Source: Paramecium tetraurelia (Eukaryota). From it: 64,000 bases of DNA. This document shows, piece by piece, positions 38,067 to 53,133 of this stretch. The notes beneath the pieces are model-generated. The model saw only the letters and a list, made by a program, of their open reading frames with translations, had not been told where the DNA came from and searched no databases. Both the position numbers and the translations under genes were made by a program. The first letter of the stretch is position 1. Each line of letters opens with the position of its first letter. The stretch lies in NCBI GenBank assembly GCA_000165425.1, contig CT867998.1, forward strand, positions 124,001 through 188,000. Direction: 5' to 3'.

Positions 38067-41000
38067 TCATTACAATAATTGATGTGTGGAAACTAATAGT
38101 CTGTTTTTAAAGCTTCGATATATTCTATTTCCTAATTCCTAATGTAGACCCAAATTTAATAGACCTATGGCATTAGGAATGCAATGCTGAATTTCCTTTA
38201 AATTATATTTAACAGTTGTGTTTTTACAATTTTTCATACTTTCAAAATATAACCAAAATCTTTTTCTCTTTTCCTAATAAAATATTGATACGTAGATTTA
38301 AGTAGGCCTCATTGTAAATACCATTCTCTTTAACAACGTGTATTAATAAGACTAATAATATCAATAAATATGTATACATACTTTGAAAGAGGAATATTAC
38401 TCATAATTGGCATTCACTTTAATTACTTAAGGACATTTCTCATCTCCTTACACATCTTAAACGATAAATTTAGAGGGATTCAATTTAAGTTATTTTTTCA
38501 ATTTGTTTAACATGTATACTGAACACTTTTAGATATCAGATTCTATGAATTCATATTGATCCACACTACAATCATTCAATTTTAAATTCTGAAGGTTCCT
38601 CCTTTCATCGTTATAATAACTATAAAGTACCTTCCTCAACATTAGTTTAAAATTCACTATTTTAGGTTGTTCAAAGAGAGTAATTCTTTAATACAATTAA
38701 AAATTCTAACTCTCATTTAATCTGATGGGTATGTATGGTTTCAACATATTAAAGGGTTTTCTAATGTTCTCAACAAATACTTCAAATAGGGCATTAACTT
38801 CATTACCCAAATAAACAACTTAAGTATATAAATTCTCTCGTAAAACCCCTTTAAATGTATCAAGATTGAGTATAAATCGATTTTATTGATTCTTAGTAAT
38901 TTTTACTCTGTCAATAAGGGATTCCCATATTTTAATTTCGAAAGTTGAAATCATATCAAGATTGTTCTTTCTTACAAGGATCTAATTAAAGAATAAATCC
39001 TTATCACTTGAATACAGATTTTCAATACTATCTTAATTTGATACTCTAGGACTATTTCTATAAAAAATACTCTTGTCAGTCTTCTATTAAAATTATGATG
39101 TAGGCAATGGCAATCTCATACTTGTTTGACCGATAGAGTTTTGCACCGAAAACTATTTGGAGAATTATTTTTTAACAAAGAGAGGAGGTTGGGTTGAGGA
39201 TCTGGCATTTTATCTACTTTGATCACTAAAGGAATCAAGCATTTTAGGAGTATCATCCAAAGGTTTATCTAAGAATTCATCCTCGTTATTAATGGAAACC
39301 TTGCTCTCAGTCAGTTTTTATAGTTCAGATTGTGGAATAGCTCTAGCCTGACTTCGCATTTCGCTATAGAAGTCTTCAAACTCATCTGGGTGATTGATGG
39401 CCATTTGATAAATTTTGTTCATTTCAGAGAATTTCCATCTATTGATATAGAATTGGTCAATAGTTTCCTTGGTCACTAAACAGGAAGGGAATATGGATTC
39501 TAAGAAGACTGGATTCATGTTTTGAAAATCATTTGATGAGATATAGCAACTGAAATTCCTACAAGTTTGTGGTATATACAATCCAATTTGAAATTTGTTG
39601 AGAGATAAATAAGATATGGTGATGATGACATACATGTTATTTACAATTTTGGTTGTTTTATATATAAATTTCTATCCTCTAAAGATGGGAGTTAACATAG
39701 TAGTATTTTTTAAGACTTTGTTAGCTTCTTCTGGCATTTATAAATTATCTATTTAGACATCCATGATTTAAACTTAAGACTTTTTTCTAAGCATAGGATC
39801 ACTAATTAAAATAGATAATTTGGGATGAGAAGATCTAGCATGTTGTTGTTCTTCTAGAATGTTGCTTCCATATGTTACTTCCGTGAATGTATTGTGAAGA
39901 TCATATTTGGATTGACTTGCAATATAAGATAATGGTATTTTGATTCCATGATAAGTGTTGGTTCTATAACATACTAAATAAGCTGTCAATATTTTAATGA
40001 TTTCACGTAACACCTTGTCTTAAAAACAATTATGTGATGTCACTTTGTTACAAATACTTTTGATGTCAGCAAAGTCCAAAACCAACTTAAATACCTTGGT
40101 TCTGCTCTCCTAAGGAGTAATTTGAAAGTAGAAGTAGGTGTGATCATTAGTTAATTGATCACAGTAAAATTCGTTAAACTAATATACTTCACATTCCACA
40201 AACACCTTACCTATATTGCTTACTCTACTTTGAGCATTAAAGGTTTTGCGATGAAAGTAGGTTTTCATGAAATACCTTAAACGACTTGAAGATATCAGAG
40301 TCAATTTCAACTGTTACTTGAAATAATAAAAAAGGATTGTTTATTTTAATAATCTATGATTTTCATTATTTATGAATTGCAAAGGATCAATTATGTACAT
40401 CAATAAAAACTAATCTAAACCACTAAACTTATCCCTATTCCGATCCTCCAAACTAACAAACTATCTATTGAATTACAAAGCTCTCCCTATTAATTTCCTT
40501 TGCAATTTGGCTTGTGATTTAATTTAATACCCTATCAATTATGGTTTGATGAATATATGAAGCATCTTCTCAATATCTTAAATTGATTGAATCGTACGAA
40601 AATAATATAAATGTTGATTAGGATTGTATAGTGTGATCTTCACCAAAAGTTTCTAATTTCTTATCAATTCATGCATGTTCTTTTTGAGAACAAGTAAATC
40701 TTACTTTGCTTATTAATCACTCAAATACAAGAGTTTGGTGTCTAGAATTTTGACTTCTCGAAAGCACGTCTCAACTTTAAAATTTAGATTCTCCTCAAAA
40801 TAATAGAATTTATTGTTGTTTATATGGAACTTAGATCTATAAGTAAGAAAGGATTTGCTATCAATTGCTTCTTCATTGGATTGATTGACCCCAGTTTCAA
40901 TAGTCAATTGAATGCCCTCTTCAGTTTCAGTCCTATTCAAATCCGGCATTAATATTAGGGAAGTTCTTTTTTCAGAATAATTAAGACATTTGATTTCTGT

Positions 41001-44000
41001 TGGAGGCATAACTTGATTGGTTCGTAAGTATTAATGGATTTCATTGTGTATGAATTCATCATAATGATTAACTCTTTTGATATACCTATCTAAAATAATT
41101 TCAGTATGTCTGTAATTATATTATTTAAGTTCCTGAGCTAAGGTCAATCTCTATGAACTACTTTTTTTCTCTTTCAATAATTCCAAGATTTACAACTTCT
41201 TTTGACGATTAGGCAATCTGATACCAGGATCTATTTAAATCAATTATTTAATTATATTCCCGTCTTGATTATCAATTACCAAATATGTTGAACCATCTTC
41301 ATAAAGGATATAACCAGTTTTAATAGAATTATCTTACCTTAATGTTACATTGAGCATTATAAATTAATCGGGATATTCTGGGAGGAATTATTCGGGTTCT
41401 GGTTGAATGATTTGACCTCTAGGGGGAAAGTAGGTAGATTTATAGTTAAACTAATTTTTAAATGAAATGATTGGGCCTTCCTGTGGTTGGTATTCTGCGA
41501 AGTCAGCCAGATTGGCAAATTAGAATTCAGGTAGATAATCATTAAGAAATTATATATCTGATTGTGATCTATCTCTGCTATACTCATCGAGACTTTATTT
41601 TGAGATGGGAGGTTCGAAATTAAATTCTTCTTTTTTTATTTCATCTGGTTTTTGTTTCTTTGAAAACTCCAAAAAGTGGCTAACATGTGTTTTCCTTTGT
41701 ACAGCATTGCGAATCAAAGCTTATGAGGAGATAATAGAATCAAATCTAGGACTAGCCATTGTGTTTCTATTATGAATTACAGAATATTATTTCTTAGGGT
41801 TCCTCTGAGGGATCTCTTAGATAAAATCTTTCTCTGAAATATTTTCAATGGATTTAAAATTATTAGAAAATTGTTTTTATTCAGTTGGGGATTAAGATGT
41901 GACACCTCCTTTTGAAAGGTCAGATTTATTATCATCTGAGTCTTAAATTATAATGCTTTGCTCTCGAGATTATTTAATCTCATCTGAGAAGAGTTGTTGT
42001 TTTCTGTTTCTGGATGATGATGAAATAGTTGGCAATTCTTCTGTTTTATGTTCTATGATTTTGATGGGTTCTATTTTGAATTGTCTTTATATCATTCTTC
42101 TTTTGTTCTCCTTTTCAATCTACTTGTTTTTATAATAGGATCTAATGTCAATAATATCGTGTTGTAATTGATGTTATATTACATCCTTCATTGATATTAT
42201 TTTGAAACCAACAACTGATCTGATCAAATAGTAATGATTTTTTAAGGCATATAACAGTTTACTCACTATTTCATGGGCATATTCAGCACCAGAAAATATG
42301 ATGGCATGATATTTGTTGGACTGATGCAGTGTTTATTATTTACAATAAATACTTAATAAACCATTAAAGTTTTGTAGTCTATCTTTGGAAAACCACCTTT
42401 AGTATTCATCCAAATAACTAGCAAAGTTGTTTATTTTGAAATTGAGTGTGTATTATTATTTATCATTTGACAATCTAAAATAAACAATTAATTGTAATGC
42501 TTTAATTGATTAAACATCTGCAAATATATTCATAATGTATTGTAACTAATTTTCTAATTGAAGTTTACTACAGATATATACATATTTCACTAGCAGATAT
42601 GTCATGTTGTATTTCTTCTTCTTCCTCCGTATCCGGATTTTGAGAGTTGGCATCACTAAAGGCTCTGACCCAAATATTGGAGAGTTTCCAAATCTTAATT
42701 TCAGAATCAAAGAACAACTTAGATAAGAAGTACAATTCCGATTCTGGTTAATTGTAGAACTCTTTAATAATTGAGACCAACTAGGATAATCAATTTATAT
42801 AACATTACCGTCTTCGCTTTATTTGAACTGGATTAGTCGGAATCAGTATTTTTGATTTCCTTAACAATGGAATCAAATCCAAAGTTTCTTCTCCTAACTG
42901 AATTCTTCATTTCTTTAATTGAAACTTTCATTTGATTCCTCCCTGTCTATTAGCTATCAATCTTCTCACTAATTTATGTTGCATTAATGGGTCTAGGAAG
43001 ATTGATAGGTGTTAATTCAATAGTTTATATCGATTATACCTTCTTTATCCCTTTAGAATATCTCCTATAACAAGACTAAATGATGGTGGCTGCCAAATTC
43101 AACTAATCCATTGTGTACTTATTGAGTAAGTCTGCAAAATGATTGTCATTCTTTTCAGAAACTTCAGTTAGCACATTCTAAATTACAGGCATCTACTAGA
43201 TTTGCTATTGCTATTATTAGGCCAAAATGGATTCAGTAGTGGGAACATGCAAATCATCCATTTGCTATTATTAGTTTAAATCTTAAATGGTTTGCAACTT
43301 ATGTATTTTTTATTCACTTTATTGAGAGTCAGATTTAATGTGGATTAGTTGACTACTCTATTTATTTAAAACACGAGGGATCAATCTATTTGATAAAAAT
43401 TTCTTTTTGCTAATATTTTTAATTTGTTAAGCAGATTCAGTTTCTTTGTTATCATTCTTCTTCTTTCTTTGTACCACATATTCTGATTTGATCTACGGTC
43501 TAGACAACAATAAATCATCAACTGTATCCTTCTTCAATTCTGTTGTTTATAATTGTTATCTATGAAAAATCGATATGAGATACTTTAACTAATCCATATG
43601 GTTCTCCAATTAATAGAGACTACTTCTTTGAGATTAGGTAGCATTGGACAATCTAGGAGAGAACAATCTATCTTAAGGTAGAAGAGATTGATTGTAAGTG
43701 GAGACAGCTCTAGATGAAGACTTCTTATTTTTGATTTGGTATTATTTCTATTTATTGTTGGAGTCATCAAATTTCTATTGAAATGATATGGTTCTCAATT
43801 TATCCTCGTATTCTATTCTGACTTTCTTCACATATTCTGGCATCTAGTACTTGGTTGTATGTTAAGTTAATTGTCCTACTATTTGCTGATACGATTTAAC
43901 TTATTGAATGATATGATGCTAAATGAAATATCTGATATAAGAATACATTAAAATTTTTGTTTGGTTTCAGTGTAACCACTTTTTTGAGCAGTTCTTATCC

Positions 44001-49101: not shown

Positions 49102-50430
49102 ATGTCTTTAATAACTGATCCATTCTCTAGAACCCAAATCTCAAATCCTAATGAATGATTCAAATTTATGTTGAATTCTGAACACACAACTTCAAAAAGC
49201 TTAGAAACTATCTACACTGCAATACATAATGAAATATAAAAAATAATTTGCCAAATTGAATTAAGGACATTATTTAGAGTTTATGATCAGCACATGTAAG
49301 TAATTAAAAAACAATATAGGAGATGAAGATCTTGAAAATAATTAACACATCATCTAATGACATTTGATCTCATTGTTCATTTGTAAAGTTATATATAGAA
49401 CTAATATATCCCTAAAATATCATACAATTCTAACTAGACTAAAGTAATCTAATATATTGGAGAATCAATATATCTCCCATAACCATCTTGATTGTAAAAG
49501 TAATATTAATAGAAGGTTCCCTAGATGAAAGTAATATCGAAATAAAGACTGATAATTTCAAATAGAGGGTCATGAAATAAATAGTAAACTACTGAAACCT
49601 ATTATGTTTATAACAATAAAAATAAAATTTAAAAAGCAGATTAAAAATGGATGTAATTTCTGAGACATAATTGATTCAACAACGTAGAAAATTTACTATG
49701 GATAATAGAGTTATTTTTTAGAGAGTTTCTTTGCAATAAATACCGTATACCAAATTAAAAATGAAATTAAATTATGAATAATATTAATGAATTAACTACT
49801 TATAGAAGCAGAAGCCATTACTCTCCATCATAATTATCATCCAGTTCTGGGTTTCTGAATTAACAATATGATGAATTTGTAAATAAGATTTATGGCAAAA
49901 CAAGACAAATAAAAATACATCATCTTATTCCTAAACAGACCAATAAAGCGTTTGAAATAACTACTCCATAGTATGAAGATGCAATATACAAAAAAATGGA
50001 TGATTACATAAAAAATGAAAAGATTAGTCAGAGAGAAACAAGGATTCAAGAAAGAATTATTGAGAAAGAAGTCATTTAACAATATAAGGCAAAATAACAT
50101 ACTTTTAAATTATTGATCCCTGATTAAAGTTATATCAAGATACTGCAGTCCTGTTAAAATTATATGCCCAAATTTAAGTTTTCCAGATTCAACAGTCCTA
50201 ACAACCAAGCGAATAACGAAAAGTTGTTACACAAAGTTAGTGAATTACTACAATAGAGAAAATCAAGACATGACATTTATAAAAAACAGTTAGAATATGA
50301 AAGAAAGAGAAGTAAGAAGATTCTAAGATAAAATTTCAGTACAGAAAAAACTCAAAGAGTTCCAAGTCCGTTGAGATTAAAAAATATTGAATAAATTATT
50401 CAGAAGTGCAAAGAATAAAGTGATGGATGT
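49102..50430 (+). pseudogene. Probable decayed coiled-coil gene
   Basis: E/K/Q-rich coding-like patches and intron-like segments, with early TGAs in the frames I tried. Confidence 0.3.
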
Positions 50431-50515
50431 AGTTCAGAAATAAAGGAGATTAATAAAAATAAATAATAATTAAATAAAAATTATTAATTAATAAAAGACT
50501 AATATAATGATATAT

Positions 50516-51897
50516 TCAATTAATGATGAATCTTTTTAATCTTAAATCCTACTCTAAATCCACTGTCACTTAAACATTATTATTTTAAGGGAATTCTTTG
50601 AACTAAGGACTTATGATATTAGGAGTTTGCACATAAATATCTAAAATTTATTAAGTCATTGATATCAGAATGCAAATAAAACTTAGAAATTACTCCTTTT
50701 GAAATTGAACTTACATTTTCCATGGTTAATATTTATCAATTAAAGTATTAATGAGTACAAAAATCTTTTATAGTTCTAAATAACCTTCAATGAATAAATT
50801 TTTATCTAATAATGCCTTAGTATTTTTGTGCAATTCCAGGAATGTTTATTTAGATTATAATAATTGATCATCCAATAAATGTTATTATAATAGCAGTAGA
50901 TTTGGTGATATTATCTTTGGTCTGAATAGTCTAAATAAGATGTTATTAAATTGGTCAATGTACGTATTCCAACACTTCTCTAGTTTTTGTTCTTCGAATG
51001 AGACATCCATATTTTAAGGCCCTTAAGTAAGGAAGTATAATCTAATTTGATTTTAGTTGTATGTCTTTAGTAATTAGAATGGATCAATAACATTTCCAAG
51101 TGACTTAGACATTTTCATCTGAATTATTATGGTAAATTTACATTATTTCTTATCCAATGGTTATGGACAATCAATTCAGTTGTAGATTGGTTATTGATTC
51201 CTTTTAAGAAGCTCGGCCAATATAAGGCATGAAATCTGACTATATCTTTGCCTATCACATGCATATAGTGATGTTACTCTTCTTGTAAGTAGCCTAACAA
51301 AGCATCTAACCATACATAAATCAATTAGTTAGCATCATTGGGAACCTCAATTCCCCAATAATATCTCTGTTTCGGTCTGCTGATACAAATACTATTAATA
51401 ATCAATTGCTTTAGTTCATTTTGATATCGTGATGGTGCTTTAGTAATGCATGTTTCAAGATAATCTTTGTCAAATTTGAAAAAATAATTCTCTTCTTCCA
51501 AATATTGATCGGTTTTATGATTTACAAAAGATTCTTCAACTTAACAATAATATCCTTTATAAGTATCCTTTAGAATGAAGCCATTATTTTAGAGCAGATT
51601 CCAATTCTTCTAAACTTTCATGATATGTTGAGGATCAGTGGTTCTAACGAAATGATCGTATTTAATAAATGAATTAGCTAATTGTTGGAATTGATTGGAA
51701 ATGGAATCACAATATTATTGGATTGGTTGATTCTTGGCACTTCTGTAGACTTTCAATCCATGCTCATCAGTTCCTGTCAGCAATTTTACTGATTTATACT
51801 TAGCGATGGCATCTGCATAAATCATTGAATAGAGATGACCTATGTGCGGTTAGGCATTCACATAAAACAAAGGTGTAGTTATTATTTATTTTATCAT
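50516..51897 (-). CDS. MARS2: Methionyl-tRNA synthetase, minimal mitochondrial/bacterial type (452 aa)
   Basis: [16 protein letters not shown] (HIGH), [17 protein letters not shown]...[35 protein letters not shown] and NTLIDKYQPWK. One 23-nt intron. Confidence 0.95.
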
Positions 51898-53133
51898 AAA
51901 AAAATTAAATAAATTTTATATAATTATAACATACATAATCCTAACCACCCTATTTATATACTTGTTATGTTGATTAGAATCTACGATTGATGCAACCATA
52001 AATGTAATCCAAACATTATCCATGATAATAAGATCATTATTTTGGTAAACACAGTTGTTTTATCTTCTTTTAACACCACAATCAAAACAATCATTAAAAA
52101 CGATATTTCAAATAAGGTATCTATGAATATGTTATTAAATGATGCTAGAATTATTCCAAATAAGTAAGGTATGACACTTGATTGTCTCTCCTAAGGTTGA
52201 GGATTCAATTAGCAGTCTTGACTCTACAGTTCCAAAGGTTTATGATAGTAATCTGGAACTCCAATTGTATATGTATTATTTGATTACTCTTATCTGCTAT
52301 GATGAGGCTATCCATCATTTAATTCATTTGCAATCTCATTATTGTACGGTATCTTGATCTATCGTAAATCCTGCAATTGCAATGAATAATCCTCCAATTC
52401 GTCTTCAAATTTCTTGATATATGATACTACAAGACTACGAGCTTAGTTTAATTGTAGATTCAATAATTTCTGATCTAAAACTTTGATTTCATAAGTAATT
52501 TCCATTTCCAACAACTCCCCGTTCTCTTTCTATGCCAGTAGTTCAGTCACATGCTTATTGAATTGTAAGGAGTATGTCGGTATCACTATTGTAGTGTTCA
52601 TCTGATTTTGAGTGTTAGTATTCAAAGACAGTAGAATACTGTCACCAACATCCAAAATATCTATTGTTTGATTTAGCTAGAACTGTAAATTATAACTAGG
52701 CTTAAAATCACTTTCAAATTCGTAGTAATCTTCAATCTTCATGTAAAATGCATATTATCCAACCATAAACTTGTTATGCACTTGCAAATTCAACACTGAG
52801 GCTGAATGTAACATCAATCTCATAGGAGTTCTATTATTGTTGTTGCTAATCAATTGATTATTTTTCAATCTCTCATCTATAGCCGTAAGATTATCCTGTT
52901 CCTCTATTAGTTACTACTTTGAGTTGGCGATTTTTTGACTCAGCAACTAGATTGCATCCTTGTAAACCTTCTCAAATTACTAAATTGTGCATTACTTATG
53001 CTTTAACAATAATTTAGATACTTACATCTTGCATACATTTATTATACAATTAACTTATCAATTGACGATCGATGGCTATATTTGAATGACTCTAAAGTAA
53101 TTCAATAAGTTCTTGCTGTTAAAATGAATGCAT
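51894..53133 (-). CDS. Uncharacterised protein with C-terminal hydrophobic (2-4 TM) region; possible 5' extension to 53363
   Basis: MHSFQQQELIELLQSHSNIAIDRQL..., one 25-nt intron giving 1215 nt. C-terminus IPYLFGIILASFNNIFIDTLFEISFLMIVLIVVL...IMILLSWIMFGLHLW...IYLIFL*. Confidence 0.75.

What the first reader, a model, noticed from the sequence alone, without database searches (positions are those of the whole stretch)
51894..51897. Bacterial-style ATGA stop/start overlap between two same-strand nuclear genes
The membrane-protein gene (53133->, 405 codons after one 25-nt intron) ends ...TTT TTA TGA, and its A-TG-A contains the MetRS ATG at 51897. There is no intergenic DNA. Either the MetRS promoter lies in the upstream CDS and the upstream polyA site lies inside MetRS, or there is a bicistronic mRNA with termination-reinitiation or -1 frameshift fusion. 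A U-rich run (TTTTTTT) sits immediately before the overlap. A fusion could supply the targeting or anchor sequence MetRS appears to lack.
Basis: partly seen in the sequence, partly recalled or inferred. Interest (0 to 1): 0.7.

Follow-up and report, generated by a model that had tools for sequence, protein, structure and literature searches.

The report
Overlapping Paramecium genes misannotated as fusion
In Paramecium tetraurelia the stop codon of a small membrane-protein gene overlaps the start codon of the mitochondrial-type methionyl-tRNA synthetase gene; sister species keep this layout, and it is most likely read as two separate genes, although public annotations fuse them or cut the enzyme short.

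Summary
On the minus strand a 404-codon membrane-protein gene ends TTT TTA TGA (51896..51894), and the A-T-G of that ATGA (51897..51895) starts a mitochondrial-type MetRS. An independent DNA contig reproduces 51733-51976 without a difference.

The window is P. tetraurelia. Its public model (842 aa) fuses the two genes through a 35-nt GT..AG "intron" (51984..51950). The duplicate locus is annotated as two neighbours, with MetRS cut back to Met25, which removes the HIGH motif. Both look like artefacts of gene callers that avoid overlapping coding sequences.

- The "intron" is conserved as codons, and a distant homologue differs from it by an in-frame 2-codon gap.
- Six fused models use three different junctions.
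- P. bursaria has a stand-alone MetRS with the same start.

Sparse stranded RNA reads cover the MetRS 5' end but are absent from the 246 nt upstream.

Best reading (0.72): two overlapping transcription units, with the MetRS promoter inside the upstream coding sequence. Overlapping genes are already reported for Paramecium (PMC5485702). Splice fusion, stop-restart and -1 frameshifting are not supported but not excluded. Interest is moderate to low.

The parts
51894..51897 (-). ATGA: MetRS start ATG (51897..51895) overlapping the upstream gene's stop TGA (51896..51894)
   Evidence: an independent contig (X16, read as DNA) matches without a difference
51898..51904 (-). Run of 7 T. With A 51897 it forms U UUU UUA in the upstream frame, and the -1 frame is the MetRS frame
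   Evidence: the motif is at chance frequency
53026..53133 (-). Membrane-protein gene, exon 1 (36 codons)
   Evidence: orthologous models start MHSYQQQ..
53001..53025 (-). 25-nt intron (GTAAGT..AAAG) of the membrane-protein gene
   Evidence: all 8 full-length orthologous models keep two residues at the exon junction (HK in 7, YK in 1)
51894..53000 (-). Membrane-protein gene, exon 2 with stop. It holds a beta-rich middle region and 3-4 hydrophobic C-terminal segments
   Evidence: (hydropathy)
51142..51897 (-). MetRS exon 1 (252 codons; PHIGH at residues 17-21)
51119..51141 (-). 23-nt MetRS intron (GTAAAT..TTCAG)
   Evidence: all public models read ..[14 protein letters not shown]..
50516..51118 (-). 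MetRS exon 2 with stop (KMSKS motif at its start)
51950..51984 (-). 35-nt GTAGAT..AAATAG stretch that the public 842-aa model removes as an intron to fuse the two genes. Here it is read as codons SQILINITSIQIG of the membrane protein
51733..51976 (.). Stretch shared with the duplicate (ohnolog) locus. It is a single contig at higher depth (109 against 65-68 in the flanks), and its low end abuts the first amino-acid difference between the duplicates (N56H, nt 51732)
   Evidence: the identity is inferred from contig boundaries
51874..51914 (-). Bin in which stranded RNA coverage of MetRS ends. The inferred MetRS transcription start lies here or a little upstream
   Evidence: 33 + 40 reads of 58 nt only
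51934..51936 (-). Nearest upstream ATG in the MetRS frame; it would add MYVIIIQNLFNFF. There is no ATG in any frame between 51930 and 51897

Best explanation
These are two separate nuclear genes of Paramecium tetraurelia whose coding sequences share four bases. The upstream gene encodes a 404-aa protein restricted to Paramecium, with a beta-rich middle region (possibly C2-like) and a hydrophobic C-terminal membrane anchor. It terminates at TGA 51896..51894. The downstream gene encodes a 452-aa mitochondrial-type methionyl-tRNA synthetase that starts at ATG 51897.

Each gene most likely has its own mRNA. The MetRS promoter and very short 5' UTR would lie within roughly the last 20-40 nt of the upstream coding sequence. 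The upstream gene's 3' UTR and poly(A) signal (about 45 nt in this species) would lie within the first MetRS codons.

Shown: the overlap, the conservation of both frames, the conservation of the layout, and an abrupt RNA coverage boundary at the junction. Inferred: the exact transcription start, the poly(A) site, and that no ribosome passes from one frame to the other.

The public fused model (842 aa) and the truncated MetRS model (428 aa) are read as artefacts of gene callers that avoid overlapping coding sequences.
For: 1. Sequence. ATGA lies at 51897..51894. The MetRS homology starts 4 residues after this ATG.

2. Start codon. The P. bursaria MetRS model P0007 (459 aa, stand-alone) begins [13 protein letters not shown]. 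Two more distant relatives also have short N-termini (P0124: 10 residues before ITTP; P0008: 6).

3. The upstream tail is coding in its own frame.
- In alignment A1 of 5 sequences, 42 of the last 46 columns are invariant, against 231 of 331 elsewhere.
- The fragment P0228, from an unnamed more distant relative, aligns to the tail at 53% identity (E 8e-14). It has a 2-residue in-frame gap inside the supposed intron, and WLGLC(V/M)L is conserved after it.

4. Fused models disagree. The 6 fused public models use 3 different junctions: HQS|VV, LWL|M and LW|M. The implied introns are 35 nt here and, by my reconstruction on this window's sequence, about 47 nt for LW|M. The species' typical intron is 20-30 nt (PMC8354472 passage) and averages 25 nt (PMC8997360 abstract).

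5. The unfused annotation of the duplicate locus starts MetRS at Met25, after the HIGH motif (P0220, P0221). That is what a caller that avoids overlaps would produce.

6. RNA. Two oligo-dT stranded runs give about 43 read-equivalents at 51710-51914 and none in 51915-52160. The orientation fits minus-strand RNA, and no joints were listed.

7. Differences between the duplicates. Three sites at which part of the RNA reads differ (51790: 3 of 7 and 5 of 10; 51847 and 51850: 2 of 5 and 4 of 8) are third-codon synonymous changes in the MetRS frame. The difference inferred at 51977 is synonymous only in the upstream frame (CTA/TTA) (my codon arithmetic).

8. Literature. 5' UTR median 19 nt, 3' UTR median 44 nt, 'overlapping UTRs', 'genes ... 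sometimes overlap', and Cap-Seq split 649 gene models (PMC5485702 passages).
Against: - The RNA evidence is thin. There are 33 + 40 reads of 58 nt, from runs that share only the species label. No read was shown to cover the ATG, no cap or poly(A) ends were seen, and the upstream gene has only about 7 read-equivalents. Its 3' end is therefore unmapped, and zero coverage cannot exclude a rare read-through or spliced form.
- The 5' peak of MetRS coverage is about 4 times the gene body. Cross-mapping from the duplicate locus explains only part of this.
- A codon-usage log-odds test does not favour the upstream frame in its last ~55 codons. The last 30 codons score -5.7, against a true-frame mean of 4.4 (sd 2.4). 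The MetRS frame scores 0.07 to 3.3 in 30-codon windows over that stretch.
- Six of 10 public models that contain the membrane protein are fused.
- The initiation context TTTATG is T-rich.
- I could not read the DNA of any orthologous or duplicate locus, so no dN/dS was computed per frame.
Confidence: 0.72

Rival explanations
1. MetRS carries a short N-terminal extension. Transcription would start further upstream and translation would begin at the in-frame ATG 51936 (adding MYVIIIQNLFNFF) or at ATG 52023 (42 extra codons). The two coding sequences would then overlap by 43 or 130 nt in different frames.
For: - The MetRS frame is open back to 52023, and the Met at 51936 is present in all 6 fused translations.
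- Codon statistics in this stretch do not favour the upstream frame.
- The extension could stand in for the presequence the enzyme seems to lack.
Against: - RNA depth is 0 at 51915-52160 in both runs.
- With TGA as the only stop, an open stretch of 42 codons is expected about half the time in this composition (my estimate).
- The first 7 positions of the frame-B stretch vary at 5 sites among 6 models, through changes that are silent or mild in the upstream frame (inferred codons).
- The difference between the duplicates at 51977 would be Ser/Phe in this frame.
- P. bursaria MetRS starts at the short form.
- The extension has no basic residues.
Confidence: 0.08
2. This is one gene. The 35-nt stretch 51984..51950 is a real intron, and the product is an 842-aa membrane-anchored MetRS, as in public model GSPATT00029389001.
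For: - The stretch has GTA..TAG ends.
- Removing it joins the frames exactly (..LWLHQS|VVRIMYV..MIKQ).
- Retaining it ends at a TGA, as expected for a non-3n intron.
- 6 of 10 public models that contain the membrane protein are fused.
Against: - The 'intron' and what follows it are conserved as protein in the unspliced frame in 5 sequences, and in a distant fragment with an in-frame 2-codon gap.
- The 6 fused models use three different junctions.
- 35 nt (about 47 nt for LW|M, reconstructed on this window) lies above the usual 20-30 nt.
- The fused annotations of the other species used comparative evidence, so they may have inherited the fusion from the older model (my inference).
- RNA depth upstream of the junction is 0 while the MetRS 5' end has 5-10.
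- A hydrophobic segment would abut the first Rossmann strand without a linker.
Confidence: 0.06
3. A bicistronic mRNA with stop-restart. Ribosomes that terminate at UGA would re-initiate on the overlapping AUG, as in prokaryotic ATGA coupling and some eukaryotic viruses.
For: - The AUGA overlap is exact and is kept in 8 loci of 4 species.
- There is no intergenic DNA for a conventional promoter.
Against: - There is no read continuity across the junction.
- No structure upstream of AUGA exceeds shuffled sequence (z -0.60).
- After a 404-codon ORF, eukaryotic re-initiation normally needs a dedicated element. Complementarity to 18S rRNA was not tested.
- MetRS RNA depth exceeds that of the upstream gene.
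Confidence: 0.05
4. Programmed -1 frameshifting on U UUU UUA just before the stop, producing a minor fusion of the membrane protein and MetRS.
For: - The heptamer is in the correct phase.
- The -1 frame is the MetRS frame.
- A stop codon follows immediately.
Against: - No stimulatory structure lies downstream. The best element is a weak A-U hairpin (z -0.7 to -1.3).
- The motif occurs at chance frequency (4 against 2.79 expected).
- The tail residues LIFL fully explain the T run.
- The mechanism needs a read-through transcript that was not seen.
Confidence: 0.03

Closest known systems
Overlapping transcription units in the compact Paramecium macronuclear genome (Arnaiz et al. 2017, PMC5485702; passages read)
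   Same: The organism is the same. That paper reports tiny UTRs (5' median 19 nt, 3' median 44 nt), 'overlapping UTRs' and genes that 'sometimes overlap'. It also reports gene models wrongly fused until Cap-Seq split 649 of them.
   Different: Here the coding sequences themselves overlap, by 4 nt on the same strand, and the layout is shared by both duplicates and 4 species. The passages I read do not describe this locus or stop/start overlaps. I could not see the v2 model for this gene.
Overlapping mRNAs in microsporidia and nucleomorphs (Williams et al. 2005 and Corradi et al. 2008, as summarised in the Background of PMC3629993)
   Same: Extreme gene density makes transcripts start inside upstream genes or end inside downstream genes.
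   Different: Those transcripts often contain several ORFs and are tied to the spore stage. In Paramecium the UTRs are very short, and the RNA seen here stops at the junction.
Prokaryotic ATGA / TGATG overlaps with translational coupling (PMC6728339, abstract seen in the listing)
   Same: The four letters and the same-strand order are identical.
   Different: Those gene pairs sit on one operon mRNA and ribosomes re-initiate. Nothing here shows a shared mRNA.
Viral stop-restart: calicivirus VP2 (PMC2793014, abstract seen) and victorivirus AUGA (recalled; also named in scan note e1-7558285)
   Same: A eukaryotic ribosome meets an overlapping stop and start.
   Different: Those systems need a bicistronic RNA and an upstream element. 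Here no structure was found and no bicistronic RNA was seen.
Mitochondrial-type class I methionyl-tRNA synthetase (Pfam PF09334)
   Same: HIGH and KMSKS motifs are present. Identity to enzymes that their sources annotate as mitochondrial MetRS of other eukaryotes is about 40%.
   Different: There is no recognisable presequence: only 4 residues precede the ITTP strand. This is also true in P. bursaria.

Membership tests
Class I methionyl-tRNA synthetase (PF09334) | Pfam match above the curated cut-off | tested here: met
   170.7 bits against 20.1 for exon 1; 33 bits against 20.1 for exon 2
Class I methionyl-tRNA synthetase (PF09334) | HIGH and KMSKS signature motifs | tested here: met
   PHIGH at residues 17-21. 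KMSKS is at the start of exon 2. The motif names are established knowledge.
Same-strand overlapping transcription units of a compact eukaryote | Two independently conserved coding sequences with no intergenic DNA | tested here: met
Same-strand overlapping transcription units of a compact eukaryote | The downstream mRNA starts inside the upstream coding sequence, as a separate molecule | tested here: inconclusive
   The coverage boundary lies in 51874-51914 and depth is 0 for the 246 nt upstream. There are only 73 short reads and no cap data.
Same-strand overlapping transcription units of a compact eukaryote | The upstream mRNA is polyadenylated inside the downstream coding sequence | not tested
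   No poly(A) loose ends were listed, and the upstream gene is barely covered.
Spliced fusion gene (public 842-aa model) | The removed stretch behaves as an intron: free to vary, typical size, same junction in orthologues, spliced reads | tested here: not met
   It is conserved as codons with an in-frame indel. It is 35 nt against the usual 20-30 nt. The 6 fused models use 3 junctions. Spliced reads could not be assessed because depth there is 0.
Termination-reinitiation (stop-restart) | A bicistronic mRNA plus an upstream stimulatory element | tested here: not met
   No coverage spans the junction. The upstream fold has z -0.60. Complementarity to rRNA was not tested.
Programmed -1 ribosomal frameshifting | Slippery heptamer X XXY YYZ in phase | tested here: met
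   U UUU UUA at 51903..51897 in the upstream frame
Programmed -1 ribosomal frameshifting | A stable stimulatory structure a few nt downstream | tested here: not met
   z -1.28, -0.69 and -1.13 for 67, 97 and 137 nt

The most novel reading that the evidence does not exclude
The conserved AUGA, preceded by an in-phase U UUU UUA, could be a working recoding or coupling site. On a minority read-through transcript, ribosomes that finish the membrane protein would either restart on the overlapping AUG or slip -1. The second route would give a membrane-anchored MetRS that supplies the targeting the enzyme lacks. This would be a cellular, nuclear-gene example of a strategy otherwise known from prokaryotic operons and viruses.
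Probability: 0.07. Interest if true: 0.8.

Novelty: new member of a known kind. Interest (0 to 1): 0.35.

Why it matters
It corrects a family of public gene models. Six are 'membrane-anchored MetRS' fusions, and two are MetRS models that lack the catalytic HIGH motif.

It is also a clean, evolutionarily stable case in which a eukaryotic promoter and 5' UTR would sit inside the codons for a membrane helix, while the upstream gene's 3' end would sit inside the codons of an essential enzyme. The stretch around the junction appears almost identical in the two duplicated loci. That makes it a compact test bed for what a minimal Paramecium promoter and poly(A) signal look like, and for how such signals coexist with coding constraint. 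It does not change what is known about gene expression unless translational coupling is shown.

Tried and rejected
- Whole genome: none is held for this window, so the duplicate locus could not be read as DNA.
- The look-up of sequencing runs: no RNA holder listed. Three raw RNA runs were offered by species label only.
- Read laying: the contigs of X3 (kind guessed RNA) gave no piece across 51611-51991. The tool says a hole proves nothing.
- Metagenome scan for related loci: the 80 loci kept all had 34-40% identity in the best segment and were not inspected further. No Paramecium relative was found, and none was used.
- Pfam on the membrane protein: nothing at E <= 0.01, and only sub-threshold noise at E <= 1.
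- AlphaFold2 of the membrane protein from a 5-row alignment: mean pLDDT 39, so no fold search was run.
- ESM Atlas: a C2-family cluster (rank 3) at score 0.93. This is a lead only.
- Profile search of 1.84 billion representatives: only the family itself and 5 short fragments.
- Codon-usage frame test: inconclusive, and if anything against the upstream frame in the tail.
- Literature:
  - The gene ids occur in no paper text and not in the one held supplement of PMC5485702.
  - Searches for Paramecium plus overlapping genes or bicistronic, and for ciliate plus termination-reinitiation, returned nothing on such overlaps in ciliates.
  - bioRxiv supplements are closed and could bear on this.
- Earlier scan notes: none for this genome or sequence.
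Rejected.

Full report
**What is in the sequence.** The window is AT-rich (GC 0.19-0.34) and reads as long open frames only when TAA and TAG are read as glutamine. The protein hits show that it is Paramecium tetraurelia macronuclear DNA.

On the minus strand, an upstream gene starts at ATG 53133. It has a 25-nt intron (53025..53001) and ends ATT TTT TTA TGA, with the TGA at 51896..51894. That gives 404 aa plus the stop.

The A at 51897 and the TG of that stop form the ATG of a class I methionyl-tRNA synthetase:
- Pfam PF09334 matches at E 5.5e-50, with profile position 2 at residue 5.
- PHIGH lies at residues 17-21.
- A 23-nt intron (51141..51119) precedes KMSKS.
- The stop is at 50518..50516, giving 452 aa.

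**Is it an error or chance?** A contig of a separate run (X16; its kind is not on record and I read it as DNA) covers 51733-51976 with no difference and no gap. Public models translate the same string in both frames..YLIFL-stop in 4 models and ..NFFMIKQ.. in 6. The 7-T run is therefore real.

The letters alone are not unusual. TTTTTTATGA occurs 4 times in the window against 2.79 expected, and 16 of 34 long-ORF ends have A before TGA. What is not chance is that this ATG is the true MetRS start and that the layout is conserved.

**What the public annotations do.**

| Locus or species | Public model(s) | Treatment |
|---|---|---|
| This window | GSPATT00029389001 (P0005, 842 aa) | Fuses both genes by removing 51984..51950 (GTAGAT..AAATAG, 35 nt); junction ..LWLHQS\|[21 protein letters not shown].. 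|
| Duplicate (ohnolog) locus, another scaffold | GSPATT00035648001 (P0001) and GSPATT00035649001 (P0221) | Two consecutive genes. P0001 ends ..KIYLIFL. P0221 (428 aa) starts at Met25, after the HIGH motif |
| P. octaurelia | P0218; P0223 + P0220 | Both solutions occur |
| P. pentaurelia, P. primaurelia | 4 models | Fused, but with other junctions (LW\|MVRIMY.., LWL\|MLRIMY.., LWL\|MVRNMY..) |
| P. sonneborni | 2 models of 404 aa | Unfused, ending ..KIYLIFL. No MetRS model was found in either length class |

In total, 6 of the 10 public models that contain the membrane protein are fused, using 3 different junctions. The other 4 are unfused. The layout of membrane-protein gene directly followed by MetRS is therefore documented in 8 loci of 4 species, which means it predates the last whole-genome duplication.

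**Why the fusion is probably an artefact.**
1. The stretch removed as an intron, and the 17 codons after it, are conserved as protein in the unspliced frame. In an alignment of 5 sequences, 42 of the last 46 columns are invariant, against 231 of 331 elsewhere.
2. A profile search of 1.84 billion representatives found only this family plus 5 fragments. One of them, P0228, comes from an unnamed and more distant relative. It aligns to the tail at 53% identity (E 8e-14), with a two-residue, in-frame gap inside the supposed intron and WLGLC(V/M)L conserved beyond it. That is how codons behave, not introns.
3. A real intron should give one junction in orthologues, not three.
4. The 35-nt stretch (about 47 nt for LW|M, by my reconstruction on this window's sequence) exceeds the 20-30 nt described as characteristic of Paramecium (PMC8354472 passage) and the 25-nt average (PMC8997360 abstract). 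The annotations of the other species combined ab initio prediction with comparative evidence, so a fusion could be inherited from the older model. That last point is my inference.
5. P. bursaria has a stand-alone 459-aa MetRS that starts [13 protein letters not shown], and two further relatives also have only 6-10 residues before ITTP. The short N-terminus is therefore ancestral and does not need a fusion to explain it.

**RNA evidence.** Only one lay was allowed. Two oligo-dT, paired, stranded runs with the same species label gave 33 and 40 reads of 58 nt.

| Interval | Depth (X22 / X23) |
|---|---|
| 51710-51873 | 3.3-8.8 / 5.3-9.9 |
| 51874-51914 | 0.73 / 0.41 |
| 51915-52160 (six bins) | 0 / 0 |
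| 52161-52406 (upstream gene) | about 7 read-equivalents in total |

Nearly all reads have the orientation expected for minus-strand RNA. At the density of the MetRS 5' region, about 50 read-equivalents would be expected in those 246 nt, or about 25 if half of the peak is cross-mapped. So most MetRS mRNA does not extend into the upstream gene.

No joints, indels or loose poly(A) ends were listed. With zero depth, however, splicing at 51984..51950 could not be assessed, and the upstream gene's 3' end remains unmapped.

There is no ATG in any frame between 51930 and 51897. A start site in that interval, consistent with the 19-nt median 5' UTR, makes 51897 the first AUG.

**The duplicate locus.**
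- Part of the RNA reads differ at 51790 (3 of 7 and 5 of 10 reads in the two runs) and at 51847 and 51850 (2 of 5 and 4 of 8). By my codon arithmetic, all three are third-position synonymous changes in the MetRS frame (codons 36, 17, 16). I attribute these reads to the expressed duplicate.
- The X16 contig 51733-51976 has depth 109, against 65-68 for its flanks. It ends exactly beside the first amino-acid difference between the duplicates (N56H, nt 51732).
- Its other end implies a difference at 51977. Because the two proteins are identical there, that difference can only be CTA/TTA (Leu). It would be Ser/Phe in the MetRS frame.
- I infer that the duplicates are identical over 51851-51976. Elsewhere their proteins differ by 5.4% (MetRS) and 14% (membrane protein).
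- This fits stacked constraints (codons, promoter and 3' end signals together) or gene conversion. I cannot tell which.

**Results against my reading.** A codon-usage log-odds test trained on 17 or 16 ORF stretches of this window gives -5.7 for the last 30 codons of the upstream frame, and -7.2 and -7.6 for two earlier overlapping 30-codon windows. True-frame windows average 4.4 (sd 2.4). The MetRS frame scores 0.07 to 3.3 in 30-codon windows over that stretch. The negative terms come mainly from TGG, TGT, TCG and ATA codons, so I put this down to the composition of the hydrophobic tail. It remains a mark against the upstream frame. It also keeps alive a rival in which MetRS starts at the in-frame ATG 51936.

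The amino-acid changes visible in the frame-B translations (5 of the first 7 positions vary among 6 models) map mostly to third positions of the upstream frame. Translations hide synonymous changes, so this is weak evidence.

**Recoding and coupling.** U UUU UUA (51903..51897) is an in-phase slippery heptamer, and the -1 frame is the MetRS frame. However:
- Folding the 67, 97 and 137 nt downstream gives z -1.28, -0.69 and -1.13.
- The 104 nt upstream gives z -0.60.
- The motif is at chance frequency.
- Both frameshifting and stop-restart need a read-through RNA, which was not seen.

These mechanisms are not excluded as minor events.

**Comparison with what is known.** Arnaiz et al. 2017 (PMC5485702, passages read) report overlapping UTRs, genes that sometimes overlap, and 649 gene models split by Cap-Seq. 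Overlapping transcripts are also known from microsporidia (Background of PMC3629993). The ATGA form is the classic prokaryotic coupling overlap (PMC6728339 abstract) and resembles viral stop-restart (PMC2793014 abstract; victorivirus recalled and named in scan note e1-7558285).

This locus works like the first group, and I file it there as a new, well-conserved member with a coding overlap. It fails the tested criteria for the spliced-fusion, stop-restart and frameshift classes.

My searches found no paper on this locus or on stop/start overlaps in ciliates. That covers only the held open-access library.

**Verdict.**
- Observation: confirmed.
- Interpretation: the 'embedded promoter / embedded poly(A) site' alternative is favoured (0.72). 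The fusion and targeting idea is not supported.
- Novelty: a new member of a known kind.
- Interest: 0.35. This rests mainly on the correction to public models and on a compact natural case of regulatory signals inside coding sequence.

Noticed in passing
window 49774-50526 (+) against 50516-51118 (-): A 250-aa plus-strand ORF converges on MetRS. Its coding score is 19.1 in frame against -11.5 and -54.3 off frame, and it has no Pfam family. Its last three codons plus TGA overlap the last MetRS codons plus TGA by 11 nt, so MetRS may be overlapped at both ends.
   Followed up: partly
window 53001-53031 (-): The public model P0005 joins ..CMQD|QCT.., which implies a 31-nt first intron. All 8 full-length orthologous models keep two more residues there (HK in 7, YK in 1), which fits the 25-nt intron 53025..53001.
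   Followed up: partly
P0003 (P. primaurelia, 498 aa): This fused model breaks off inside MetRS (..KVQNIGIYFKIMDLQ). That suggests a frameshift, a missed intron or a decaying copy in that locus.
   Followed up: no
window 51733-51976: This stretch appears almost identical between the two duplicated loci. It is a single contig with raised depth, and the only variants are three synonymous RNA differences. The flanking protein sequence differs by 5-14%. The cause could be constraint or gene conversion.
   Followed up: partly
window 42653-42707 (-): Two long tandem minus-strand ORFs (42707..43948 and 38361..42653) lie only 53 nt apart. This shows how little intergenic DNA the region has.
   Followed up: no
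window 51914-51922 (-): TATATAAAA lies 17-25 nt upstream of the MetRS ATG, inside codons of the membrane protein. In this AT-rich DNA that carries little weight.
   Followed up: no
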